Shown here piece after piece: positions 59,901 to 64,000 of a DNA stretch of 64,000 nucleotides. The notes under the pieces are model-generated. The model saw nothing but the letters and a program-made list of their open reading frames with translations, made no database searches and was not told the origin of the DNA. Position 1 is the stretch's first letter. Each line of letters opens with the position of its first letter. Source of the DNA: Nannocystis sp. RBIL2 (GTDB taxonomy: Bacteria > Myxococcota_A > Polyangia > Nannocystales > Nannocystaceae); the NCBI RefSeq assembly GCF_026626745.1, contig NZ_JAPNJW010000002.1, forward strand, positions 1,510,151 through 1,574,150, written 5' to 3'. Made by a program: the position numbers and the translations under genes.

Positions 59901-60992
59901 ATGCCCACCCGCCGCCGCTTCCTCGCGCTCACCGCCGCCCTCTCGGCAGCCGCTTGCAGACCGCGAGCCACGGCCGCCCCGCCCGAGCCTCCGCCGCGCC
60001 CGCTCAGCCTGCTGGTCTTCGGCGGCACCGGCTTCATCGGCCCGCACCTCGTGCGCCACGCGGTCGCCCGCGGCCACAGCGTCACGATCTTCACCCGCGG
60101 CCGGCGCAAGGTCGACCTGCCCGACAGCGTCGAGCGGCTGCTCGGCGACCGCGACGGTCAGCTCGGCAGCCTCGAAGGCAGGCGCTGGGACATCGTCGTC
60201 GACGACTCCGCCACCCGCCCCGAATGGGTCCAGCAATCGACGCAGCTATTGAAGGACCAAGTCGGCCGCTATCTCTACACCTCCTCGACCGGCGTCTACT
60301 ACCCCTATTTGAAGCCCGGCGCCGACGAGACCTGGCCCGTGCGCACCGAGCTCACCGATCCCGAGGACGGCTCCGAGGCCTACGGCGTGGCCAAGGCCCG
60401 CTGCGAGCGCGAGGTCCTGCAGACCTTCGGCGAGCGCGGCCTCGTCGTCCGGCCGACCTACATCGTCGGCCCCGGCGACACCACCGATCGCTTCCCCTAC
60501 TGGCCCGTCCGCCTGCAGCGCGGCGGCGACGTGCTCGCCCCCGGGCGCCCGGGCGACCCGGTCCAGCTCATCGACGTCCGCGACCTCGCCGAGTTCATGC
60601 TGCGCCTGCTCGAGGACGGTCGCAGCGGCATCTACAACGCAGTCGGCCCGCGCGAGCCGATCACCATGCCGCAATTCCTCGAGGCCGCGCGCGCGGCAGT
60701 CAACCCCGAGGCGCGCCTGGTATGGGTCGACGACTACGCCTTCCTCGAGGCCCACGGCATCCAGGATGCTGTCCCATGGGTCATGTTGAAGGGCAACGAC
60801 CTCGGCCACATGGCGACGCGCAACGCCAAGGCAGTGGCCGCCGGCCTGCGGTTCCGCCCGCTGGCCGACACGGTGCGCGACACCCTCGCCTGGTGGCCCA
60901 CCGTCCCCGCCGAGCGGCGCGACGCGGCGCAGTTCGCCATCACCCCCGAGCAGGAGGCGAAGGCGCTGGCCGAGTGGCGCGCGCGCGGCTGA
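59901..60992 (+). CDS. NAD-dependent epimerase/dehydratase family protein with Tat-like signal
   Basis: RRRFLALTAALSAAA twin-Arg; VFGGTGFIGPHLV Rossmann; YGVAKARCE catalytic YxxxK. Confidence 0.8.
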   Translation: MPTRRRFLALTAALSAAACRPRATAAPPEPPPRPLSLLVFGGTGFIGPHLVRHAVARGHSVTIFTRGRRKVDLPDSVERLLGDRDGQLGSLEGRRWDIVVDDSATRPEWVQQSTQLLKDQVGRYLYTSSTGVYYPYLKPGADETWPVRTELTDPEDGSEAYGVAKARCEREVLQTFGERGLVVRPTYIVGPGDTTDRFPYWPVRLQRGGDVLAPGRPGDPVQLIDVRDLAEFMLRLLEDGRSGIYNAVGPREPITMPQFLEAARAAVNPEARLVWVDDYAFLEAHGIQDAVPWVMLKGNDLGHMATRNAKAVAAGLRFRPLADTVRDTLAWWPTVPAERRDAAQFAITPEQEAKALAEWRARG

Positions 60993-61653
60993 CCGCTACC
61001 GGCGCCTCCGCCTCGGGGTTCCAGGTCGGCCGCCGGCGCGATGCTCCGGACATGTCCTTCAGGCCAGGTTCATCTCGCGGCACCAGCGCGACGCGGACCA
61101 GCTGCAGCTCGCCGCGGTGCGCGGCGAGGAAGCGGACCAGGCGGTCGAAGCGGCGGTGATCCCCGCCCTGCCGCGACCACGGCACGTCGACCCGCAGCGT
61201 CGCCGACCCCGTCCACGACAGCCGCGCGTCGGGCTCGACCAGCCGCACCGCCGCCACCGCGAGCTCGCTCGGCTGGCGCAGCACCAGCTCGATCTTGCCG
61301 AACCACACCGCGCCGTGCAGCAGCCACGGCTTCAAATCGCCGACCGGCACGGGGTAGCGGGCGATCCGGCGCCGCAGCCAGCCGTCGGCCGGGACCTCGC
61401 GGTCGACCGCGCTGCGGGCCAGCGCGAGCATGTTCCACAGCAGGAACGCCGCGAACAGCTGCGGCATCATCGCCACGCCGCACACGACCGCGGTGAACAC
61501 CCCCGCCACGCGCGCGGCGCCCCAGAACTCGTGCGGCGGCCCCGGTTCGGACCAGGCCGGCAGCCCCTCCCGCAGCGCCCGCTCGAGCGCAGTCTCGACG
61601 AAGCTGCGATACGGCTCGCGGGCGACGGGGGGCTGTCCTTCGAGCGCACGCAT
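60940..61653 (-). CDS. Hypothetical membrane protein
   Basis: 237 aa ORF with TM-like segment; 3' end overlaps convergent gene by about 50 nt and covers a hairpin repeat, so C-terminus doubtful. Confidence 0.35.
   Translation of the reverse strand: MRALEGQPPVAREPYRSFVETALERALREGLPAWSEPGPPHEFWGAARVAGVFTAVVCGVAMMPQLFAAFLLWNMLALARSAVDREVPADGWLRRRIARYPVPVGDLKPWLLHGAVWFGKIELVLRQPSELAVAAVRLVEPDARLSWTGSATLRVDVPWSRQGGDHRRFDRLVRFLAAHRGELQLVRVALVPRDEPGLKDMSGASRRRPTWNPEAEAPVAVSRARATRPAPSPPARG
61044..61068. repeat. Hairpin-repeat copy
   Basis: ccggacatgtccttcaggcc. Confidence 0.6.
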
Positions 61654-61728: not shown

Positions 61729-64000
61729 TCACGACAGCAGGTCGCTGGCCGCGATCGGTGCGATGACCTGCTCGCGGAACAGCGCGTAACACACGCTGCC
61801 CGCCGGCAGCTCGAGGTCGCCGCGGACCAGCGCCGCGAACACCGGCGGCCCCGAGGCCGCGGGCAACACCGCCGGGCTCGCCCCCTCGCCGGCGCGGATC
61901 CGCCGCAAGAACGACTCCGCCGATTCATTGGCCATACGGGCGAACCCACGCGCCTCGCCCGCCCCGCGCACGATCACCTGCCGACCGCGCGCCGCCGCGT
62001 GCAGCAGCGCCAGCTCGAACATCGAGATCCGCGCCCCGCTGGCGAAGTAATCGATCATCTCCGGACAGATCTTCGTGATCGCCCCGTTCGACGTCGCCAC
62101 GTTGTTCATGGCGAGCTGCCCGGTCGAGTAGACGTCGAGCCAGTGCATCGTCGATTCGGCGACGTCGAGCACCAGCGGCATGAACACCCCGTTGTCGCCC
62201 TGCAGGTCGAACTTGAGCTCGACCTTGCGCGCGTCGAATTGCTTCCCGCCGAGGTCGGCGCGCAGCATCATCCCGGCCCACGCCCGCTCGAGCCGCGAGA
62301 ACGCCATGCCGGCGTAGTTGTTGACGACCATCACCGCGTAGCGGATCCCGCGGGCCCGGGCGCGCTCGCGGTGGACGTCGACGAATTCGGCCGCGCCGTC
62401 GGGGAACGGCCCGCTGCGCAGGTCGCCGGAGCTCTGCGCGATCGGCTGACCGTCGGGCCCGTCGAACCGCAATTGATAATAGGAGCACACGCCGAGGTAC
62501 TCCCACTTATCGTCGTAGAAGGCGACCGAAAGGTCGATGTCGGTGGTGTGGCCGTCCTCCGGCTCGCACCAGTGCAGGAACAGCCGCACCACCTCGCCGG
62601 CCGGCAGCGCCACCCGCGAGCCGCGCGGCAGCGACACCGCGGCGCGGCTCGCCGTGCGCTCGTTGAACGGCACGATGACGGCGCGCAGGCCCTCGTCGAG
62701 CACGCAGGTCTCGAAGCCCGGCTTGTCGGCCAGCCGGCGCAGCAGCTCGTGCTCGACCGCCTCGCCCGCCGCCGCGAGCGCGCGCGGGGCCAGCGGGGCC
62801 CGCCGGTCGGGCGCCGAGGTGCCCTTCGTGACCTGTCCCTTGGGCCAGAACACGCGCACCGCCGCCGGCCGCCCGCGCGTCGGCAGGTGGCCGTGCAGCG
62901 TCAGCAGCAGCGGGTTCTGCAGCCGCGGCGCCGCCGCGACGAACGCCGAGATCACCACGTCCTGCGCGCCCGCGTCGGCGCCCGCGACCCGCAGCGCGTG
63001 GTCGAAGCGCCGGCCCAGCTCGCCCGGCCGCGCCCGCAGCCGCTCGATCATCGCCGCGGCGTCACCGGCCCGCGCCGCCGCCTCGATCGCCGCGTGGAAG
63101 CCGACGAACCGCGGCGCCGGCGTCCCGTCGGGCGCCTTCTTGCGCACCACCGCGAACGCCCGCGCCACGTTGGGGAACCGCTCGGCGAACTCGTGCGGGT
63201 GGAGGAACTGCCCGAGCCACTGCCAGTACGAGCGGTGGCGCAGCATGTCCTCGATCAGACCATCGGGGTGCATCGTCTCGAGGTGGGCCAGCACCGCCCG
63301 GCGCAGCGGCCGGCGCAGCGGCGCCACCTTGAAGCGATACTTGTGGATCGTCAGCGCCACCATCTTGGCCTTCGGCAGCGTGCTCGCGCCGCCGAACACC
63401 TGCTTGAGCTTGGCCGCGAACCCGCCGGCGAGGCTCCCCCCGGGCGGCTGCTCGACCCACCGCTTCTCGCTCGTCCCCTGCAGCGACGGGTCGGCGTCGG
63501 AGTAGACCGCCAGAGTGCGCAGCACGTCGGTCGCGGTCGCCAGGTGGGCCCGCGCCACCGCGAAGGTCGCCGGCGCGTTGCACTTGCGCAGCAGCGCGCC
63601 GAAGATCCGCGCCACGTTCTCGCGCACCGCGATCGCGTCCGGCAGCCAGGCCAGCACCTGCTCGCCGAACTCGTTCACCAGCGTCCCGAGGTCGCCGGCG
63701 TCGATCGGCGACATCACCTGCTTGCGCGCGCAGAACGACTCGAACAGCCCCCGCGCCGCGGCCGGCAGGTCCTCGCCGAGGTCGAGCAGCTTGAAGCGGA
63801 CCTTCTCGCGCGGCAGGCTGCGCTCGAGGAACCGCCCCGGCTTGAAGAACGGCGACTCGCGGTCGACGTGGTGCTCGCACACCGGGCACGCGCTGTAGTT
63901 GGCGCCGTCGAAGCAGTGGTCGCAGACCACGTGCATGCACGGGCTCAGCACGTGGGTCGTGCCGACCCGGCGACAGAACACGCACGGCTGGCCCTCGGTC
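61729..64000 (-). CDS. Large protein with N-terminal C3HC4 RING-finger-like zinc-binding motif (N-terminus continues beyond window end)
   Basis: CVFCRRVGTTHVLSPCMHVVCDHCFDGANYSACPVC = C-x2-C-x11-C-x1-H-x2-C-x2-C-x8-C-x2-C; over 750 aa continuous ORF. Confidence 0.6.
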   Translation of the reverse strand, partial: TEGQPCVFCRRVGTTHVLSPCMHVVCDHCFDGANYSACPVCEHHVDRESPFFKPGRFLERSLPREKVRFKLLDLGEDLPAAARGLFESFCARKQVMSPIDAGDLGTLVNEFGEQVLAWLPDAIAVRENVARIFGALLRKCNAPATFAVARAHLATATDVLRTLAVYSDADPSLQGTSEKRWVEQPPGGSLAGGFAAKLKQVFGGASTLPKAKMVALTIHKYRFKVAPLRRPLRRAVLAHLETMHPDGLIEDMLRHRSYWQWLGQFLHPHEFAERFPNVARAFAVVRKKAPDGTPAPRFVGFHAAIEAAARAGDAAAMIERLRARPGELGRRFDHALRVAGADAGAQDVVISAFVAAAPRLQNPLLLTLHGHLPTRGRPAAVRVFWPKGQVTKGTSAPDRRAPLAPRALAAAGEAVEHELLRRLADKPGFETCVLDEGLRAVIVPFNERTASRAAVSLPRGSRVALPAGEVVRLFLHWCEPEDGHTTDIDLSVAFYDDKWEYLGVCSYYQLRFDGPDGQPIAQSSGDLRSGPFPDGAAEFVDVHRERARARGIRYAVMVVNNYAGMAFSRLERAWAGMMLRADLGGKQFDARKVELKFDLQGDNGVFMPLVLDVAESTMHWLDVYSTGQLAMNNVATSNGAITKICPEMIDYFASGARISMFELALLHAAARGRQVIVRGAGEARGFARMANESAESFLRRIRAGEGASPAVLPAASGPPVFAALVRGDLELPAGSVCYALFREQVIAPIAASDLLS

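What the first reader, a model, noticed from the sequence alone, without database searches (positions are those of the whole stretch)
61729..64000. Bacterial protein with textbook C3HC4 RING-finger signature at its N-terminus
The minus-strand ORF reads C-x2-C-x11-C-x1-H-x2-C-x2-C-x8-C-x2-C (CVFC..SPCMHVVCDHC..SACPVC). This matches the RING-HC consensus exactly. It is followed by more than 700 residues without other motifs I recognise, and the ORF continues past the window edge. RING E3-like domains are rare in free-living bacteria. Such a domain could be a zinc-ribbon protein-interaction module or part of a ubiquitin-like conjugation or defence system encoded just outside this window.
Basis: seen in the sequence. 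Interest (0 to 1): 0.6.

Follow-up and report, generated by a model that had tools for sequence, protein, structure and literature searches.

The report
Known bacterial RING–Ro60-like–TerD protein
The RING finger is real, but the gene belongs to an already catalogued and experimentally unstudied bacterial family in which the RING sits on a Ro60-like RNA-binding scaffold with an inserted TerD domain, and no ubiquitin-like system lies beside it.

Summary
The minus-strand ORF 61729-64000 encodes CVFC-x11-CMH-x2-C-x2-C-x8-CPVC. This is the only RING-HC match in the six-frame translation of the window, and 100 shuffles gave none.

The gene is a Nannocystis orthologue of a named family: NCBIfam NF041916 "MXAN_6230/SCO0854 family RING domain-containing protein" (871 bits, cutoff 600) and Pfam PF14447 Prok-RING_4. 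The RING is not N-terminal. About 113 residues lie beyond the window edge.

The "motif-less" 700 residues fold, in an AlphaFold model with pLDDT 89, into three parts:
- a Ro60/TROVE-like helical solenoid;
- a vWA-like domain;

Ten bacterial gene contexts share no neighbour and contain no E1, E2, Ubl or JAB gene. The residue after the last Cys is Glu, where BIRC7 has Arg.

Relatives that lack the RING are common in large phages. There, 56 of 80 loci sit within 6 kb of tRNA genes, some next to Thg1, RNA ligases, RlaP or RtcB.

Best reading: an RNA-surveillance scaffold with a ligand-sensing TerD domain, and a RING that serves as an accessory docking module. This is an already known family of untested function. 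Interest is low to moderate.

The parts
61729..64000 (-). Partial ORF (756 codons plus stop at 61729-61731) for an MXAN_6230/SCO0854-family RING protein. About 113 N-terminal codons lie beyond the window edge.
   Evidence: Translation; GC3 0.97; NCBIfam NF041916 at 870.8 bits against a cutoff of 600, profile positions 111-842; 95% identical to N. pusilla and 89% to N. exedens orthologues; full-length 869-aa orthologues.
63847..63984 (-). RING finger (Pfam Prok-RING_4 span). The eight Zn ligands lie within 63877-63984.
   Evidence: PF14447 at E 2.3e-18 and zf-C3HC4_3 at E 5.5e-6; ligands conserved in 80-81 of 81 homologues; PDB profile hits to BIRC7, CGRRF1 and cIAP2 RINGs; only regex match in the window; coordinates checked.
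62719..63771 (-). Helical repeat (HEAT-like) region resembling the Ro60/Rsr TROVE ring. It carries a β-hairpin insertion.
62680..62718 (-). First β-strand and short helix of the vWA-like domain, lying before the TerD insertion. Includes the invariant Asp (D548 in orthologue numbering).
62647..62670 (-). Invariant PFNERTAS loop. It is flexible in the models and conserved as P-x3-R-[ST]-x-S even in phage homologues.
   Evidence: Invariant columns P557 to A563; pLDDT below 50 at model residues 26-33; phage alignments; short forms.
62119..62616 (-). TerD-fold β-sandwich inserted into the vWA-like domain.
61732..62106 (-). Remainder of the vWA-like α/β domain.

Best explanation
Identity (shown). 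This is the Nannocystis orthologue of the catalogued bacterial family Prok-RING_4 / NF041916 (MXAN_6230/SCO0854). It is a stand-alone protein of about 869 aa, with no signal peptide evident by eye in the orthologue's N-terminus. Its parts, in order, are:
- an N-terminal helical domain (outside the window);
- a C3HC4 RING;
- a Ro60/TROVE-like helical solenoid;
- a vWA-like domain that carries an inserted TerD domain.

Mechanism (inferred). The conserved core is the solenoid plus the vWA domain with its TerD insert. It most likely works like Ro60, as a protein platform that binds structured, damaged or tRNA-like RNA and presents it to processing or repair enzymes. The TerD insert probably acts as a Ca2+ or small-ligand sensing element. 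The vWA MIDAS motif is degenerate.

The RING is a lineage-specific addition to this core. It is full in bacterial members, reduced to one zinc site or deleted in others, and absent from phage homologues. Its most likely role is a zinc-stabilised docking surface that recruits a partner encoded elsewhere in the genome. True E2~Ubl activation is possible but not favoured.
For: Family membership:
- NCBIfam at 870.8 bits (cutoff 600) and Pfam PF14447.
- Source names for the homologues are "RING finger family protein 4" and "MXAN_6230/SCO0854 family...".

Architecture:
- AF2 full-length model, pLDDT 89.
- The C-terminal half gives TerD first, then mostly vWA domains, including those of Ro60, Rsr and phage Ro60.
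- Ro60 is defined as a HEAT-repeat ring plus a vWFA domain that binds Y RNAs and misfolded RNA.

Core versus accessory:
- Of 130 near-full-length representatives, a regular-expression search of the N-terminal region finds a full RING in 71, a half RING in 27 and none in 32.
- Phage proteins align to the family profile along their whole length, with a gap where the RING would be: hhalign 99.8% and 100%, E 1e-28 and 2e-47.
- Of 80 viral homologues, 0 have a full RING.

RNA link:
- 56 of 80 viral loci have tRNA genes within 6 kb. After dereplication at 60% identity this is 25 of 44 clusters, and 21 of those have three or more tRNAs.
- Recurrent neighbours are Thg1, RNA_ligase PF09414 and T4 Rnl1-type ligase.
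- An RlaP nucleotidyltransferase is adjacent or within 1.5 kb in RcXuper, RpAliso, XacN1, Xoo-sp13 and the 291-kb contig L016.
- RtcB lies 3 kb away in Weasels2.
- A 2025 preprint reports that RlaP adds nucleotides to damaged RNA 3' ends.

The gene stands alone in bacteria: no shared neighbours.
Against: - No RNA binding has been shown for any member.
- No Y-RNA-like or other Rfam family was found in the window or the N. exedens locus. No tRNA adjacency was seen in bacterial loci.
- The RNA-repair context comes from phage homologues of about 25-30% identity that lack the RING. Function may have diverged in the bacterial clade.
- RlaP and RtcB were not detected in the 80 IMG/VR loci with my small HMM.
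- tRNA islands in large phages also collect unrelated genes and mobile HNH and TnpB elements.
Confidence: 0.55

Rival explanations
1. The protein is a working RING E3 ligase that activates an E2~Ubl thioester as part of a bacterial ubiquitin-like conjugation or defence system. The Ro-like/TerD part would then be the substrate- or signal-recognition module.
For: - The C3HC4 spacing is canonical, and the best solved-structure matches are IAP-type E3 RINGs.
- An aromatic residue before Cys2 (F in 67/81) and the Pro after Cys7 (81/81) sit at positions that contact E2 in canonical RINGs (the E2-contact roles are from my own knowledge).
- Prokaryotic Ubl operons with RING-type E3s do exist (Kaur et al. 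2020).
Against: - No E1, E2, Ubl or JAB gene appears in the window ORFs tested or in ten bacterial contexts.
- The residue after the last Cys is the "linchpin" Arg/Lys in E2~Ub-activating RINGs. It aligns to the Arg of BIRC7. Here it is Glu in 72/81, Gly or Asn in the rest, and never Arg or Lys.
- The RING is degraded or lost in many relatives whose core is conserved.
- PADLOC gives no match.
Confidence: 0.1
2. The protein is a Ter-like stress or phage-resistance sensor. The TerD domain, a TerF/TerY-like vWA domain and a treble-clef zinc domain would recreate in one polypeptide the TerD-TerF/TerY module of tellurite-resistance (Ter) systems. The module would sense Ca2+ or a nucleotide-like metabolite and act through protein-protein contacts, not through RNA.
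For: - TerD is by far the strongest structural match.
- Ter systems combine TerD ligand sensors with TerF vWA proteins (Iyer et al. 2021).
- An Allostreptomyces family member has a divergent vWA-TerF-like neighbour.
- There are weak, non-significant TerY_C hits over the RING, at E 0.7-2.4.
Against: - Only one of ten bacterial contexts has any Ter-related neighbour.
- The 350-residue solenoid matches Ro60/Rsr together with the vWA domain. The Ter hypothesis does not explain this.
- Phage homologues sit with tRNA genes and RNA-repair enzymes, not with TerC, TelA or PRTase genes.
Confidence: 0.2
3. The RING is a purely structural zinc module, or a nucleic-acid-contacting one. It would brace the junction between the N-terminal helical domain and the solenoid and recruit no partner.
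For: - The stepwise decay from a full RING to a single zinc site (C-x-H...C-x2-C) to eroded remnants to deletion leaves the rest of the protein intact.
- The RING is confidently packed in the full-length model, with pLDDT about 87-92 over residues 121-160.
Against: - Strong conservation extends beyond the ligands. Examples are GTTHVL, FDG-x-NYS, and E-H-H-V-D-R-x-S-P-F-F after the last Cys. This suggests a conserved functional surface rather than a simple brace.
- Homologues fold without the RING.
Confidence: 0.15

Closest known systems
NCBIfam NF041916 (MXAN_6230/SCO0854 family RING domain-containing protein) / Pfam PF14447 Prok-RING_4 (Burroughs, Iyer & Aravind 2011, Mol Biosyst 7:2261)
   Same: This is the family itself. 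The match runs the full available length above the curated cutoff, with the same RING spacing and the same length class of about 865 aa. Orthologues in Nannocystis, Pyxidicoccus, Kofleriaceae, Janthinobacterium and Allostreptomyces carry these names.
   Different: Nothing of substance. The window copy lacks its first 113 or so codons only because the window ends. The 2011 paper could not be read here. From memory, its Pfam summary describes an N-terminal helical domain, ROT/TROVE-like repeats and a C-terminal TerD domain, and suggests an RNA-processing role. I did not find a description of the vWA-like domain that hosts the TerD insert, or of the RING-less phage homologues.
Ro60 / Rsr (TROVE) RNA-chaperone ring proteins
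   Different: There is no sequence-level match to Pfam TROVE. The MIDAS motif is degenerate: Asp is kept but the Ser residues are lost. TerD is inserted in the vWA domain. An extra N-terminal domain and a RING are present. No adjacent Y-RNA was found. I could not verify whether the ring is closed.
TerD-family proteins of tellurite-resistance (Ter) systems (e.g. K. pneumoniae TerD 2kxt, SCO6318 2qz7)
   Different: Identity is 11-18%, and the Pfam TerD model does not match. Here TerD is an insert in a larger protein rather than a stand-alone Ter-operon gene.
Eukaryotic IAP-type RING E3 domains (BIRC7/ML-IAP, cIAP2, CGRRF1; Pfam zf-C3HC4_3)
   Same: The eight-ligand C3HC4 pattern with a short second loop is the same. 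These are the best solved-structure sequence matches, at E 8.7e-4 to 0.013. Pfam zf-C3HC4_3 matches at E 5.5e-6.
   Different: Glu replaces the Arg that follows the last Cys in BIRC7. The RING is not C-terminal. No E2 or Ub system is known for the host.
Prokaryotic Ubl-conjugation operons with RING-type E3 (E1/E2/Ubl/JAB cassettes; Kaur et al. 2020 eLife)
   Same: Both contain a prokaryotic RING-superfamily domain.
   Different: Those RINGs are encoded in operons with E1, E2, Ubl and JAB genes. This gene never is, in the ten bacterial contexts examined.

Membership tests
NCBIfam NF041916 RING_SCO0854 (equivalog) | Whole-protein HMM score above the curated cutoff of 600 bits | tested here: met
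   870.8 bits, E 1.1e-261, one stretch covering protein residues 2-755 and profile positions 111-842.
Pfam PF14447 Prok-RING_4 | Domain score above the gathering threshold of 27 bits | tested here: met
   66.3 bits, E 2.3e-18, profile positions 1-46 of 46.
RING-HC (C3HC4) zinc finger | Eight ligands spaced C-x2-C-x9-39-C-x1-3-H-x2-3-C-x2-C-x4-48-C-x2-C and conserved in homologues | tested here: met
   Exact pattern in the sequence; ligands conserved in 80-81 of 81 homologues.
RING-HC (C3HC4) zinc finger | Cross-brace binding of two Zn2+ ions | not testable with these tools
   The AF2 model is confident over the RING, but no coordinates or metal are available. This needs a zinc stoichiometry measurement or a solved structure.
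Catalytic RING E3 ligases | Basic "linchpin" residue (Arg/Lys) directly after the last Cys, which locks E2~Ub in the closed state. The role of this residue is from my own knowledge. | tested here: not met
   Glu in the window protein. Glu 72, Gly 5, Asn 4 of 81 homologues, and never Arg or Lys. The position aligns with the Arg of BIRC7. Not every active RING has this residue, so the result lowers the E3 reading but does not exclude it.
Catalytic RING E3 ligases | E2 binding and stimulation of Ub/Ubl transfer | not testable with these tools
   Requires biochemistry.
Prokaryotic Ubl-conjugation cassette | Neighbouring E1-like, E2-like, Ubl and JAB genes | tested here: not met
   None found in 30 window ORFs and 4 ORFs from N. 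exedens locus L001, nor in the contexts. No neighbour is shared between distant loci.
Ro60/Rsr (TROVE) | HEAT-repeat solenoid plus vWA domain fold | tested here: met
Ro60/Rsr (TROVE) | Sequence match to Pfam TROVE (PF05731) | tested here: not met
   No TROVE hit at E<=10 for four full-length members, nor at E<=1 for the window protein.
Ro60/Rsr (TROVE) | Adjacent Y-RNA / tRNA-like ncRNA gene | tested here: not met
   No Rfam match at gathering score in the window or L001. No tRNA-like gene lies next to the bacterial genes. Unannotated ncRNAs are not excluded.
Ro60/Rsr (TROVE) | RNA binding through a central cavity or basic outer surface | not testable with these tools
   Only indirect evidence: many invariant Arg/Lys in the solenoid and the phage gene context.
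TerD family | TerD β-sandwich fold | tested here: met
TerD family | Sequence match to Pfam TerD (PF02342) and intact Ca2+-binding motifs | tested here: inconclusive
   No Pfam TerD hit. Conserved D600, D602, S604, S636, G638, D639, E651 and D654 resemble TerD motifs by eye, but no residue-level structural alignment was available.
Known anti-phage defence systems (PADLOC-DB v2) | Significant match to a defence-protein model | tested here: not met
   Only PglX at E 0.025 and 10.8 bits, which is noise.

The most novel reading that the evidence does not exclude
The bacterial members are Ro60-type RNA-damage sensors that have acquired a working RING. They would couple recognition of damaged tRNA or ncRNA (and a Ca2+ or nucleotide signal read by TerD) to covalent tagging or recruitment of proteins, using an E2/Ubl-like partner encoded elsewhere. 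That would be an RNA-quality-control E3 in bacteria that have no recognised ubiquitin system. A second reading is less exotic and more probable. The RING-less homologues in the tRNA islands of large phages would be a widespread, unrecognised phage factor that protects or repairs tRNAs during infection.
Probability: 0.1. Interest if true: 0.8.

Novelty: already known. Interest (0 to 1): 0.3.

Why it matters
For the genome scan, this is an annotated family member. The ubiquitin-system idea has no support in the sequence data. The family does remain experimentally untouched: my paper searches found no study of SCO0854 or MXAN_6230. It is one of the few places where a canonical C3HC4 RING sits in free-living bacteria with no visible Ub machinery.

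Three observations made here give concrete, testable handles on what a bacterial RING does:
- The body of the protein is Ro60-like, with a TerD insert in its vWA domain.
- The RING is dispensable across the superfamily.
- RING-less homologues are common in the tRNA and RNA-repair islands of large phages.

Together they point to an unstudied phage tRNA-associated protein family.

Tried and rejected
1. Ubiquitin-like neighbours. I looked for E1, E2, Ubl and JAB genes in the window and in the orthologous region beyond its edge. I ran Pfam on 30 window ORFs and 4 N. exedens ORFs and read precomputed Pfam for nine further contexts. None was found.
2. Downstream 237-aa gene (60940-61653) as a partner. 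It is conserved only within Nannocystis, has no Pfam or PADLOC hit, and no terminator lies between the two genes. I rejected it as a family-wide partner.
3. Shared neighbours by all-against-all ORF clustering of 12 loci. Apart from one large single-linkage cluster whose non-Nannocystis members I did not check one by one, only alternative-frame copies of the RING gene itself were shared with distant loci.
4. Sequence-level detection of TROVE or TerD, using Pfam at E<=10 and a PDB profile search. Only RING hits came back.
5. Y-RNA or other Rfam families and tRNAs near the bacterial gene. None found.
6. Burroughs et al. 2011. Not held in the library. Literature searches for SCO0854, MXAN_6230 and PF14447 found no functional study.
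7. IMG/VR scan with full-RING family motifs. No relatives. The short-form alignment A4 worked.
8. RlaP and RtcB as general neighbours of phage homologues. They were not detected in the 80 IMG/VR loci with a five-sequence HMM and phmmer, although the positive controls worked. An earlier tblastn also found none.
9. Context of the short-form cluster P0238. The neighbours were uninformative hypothetical genes.
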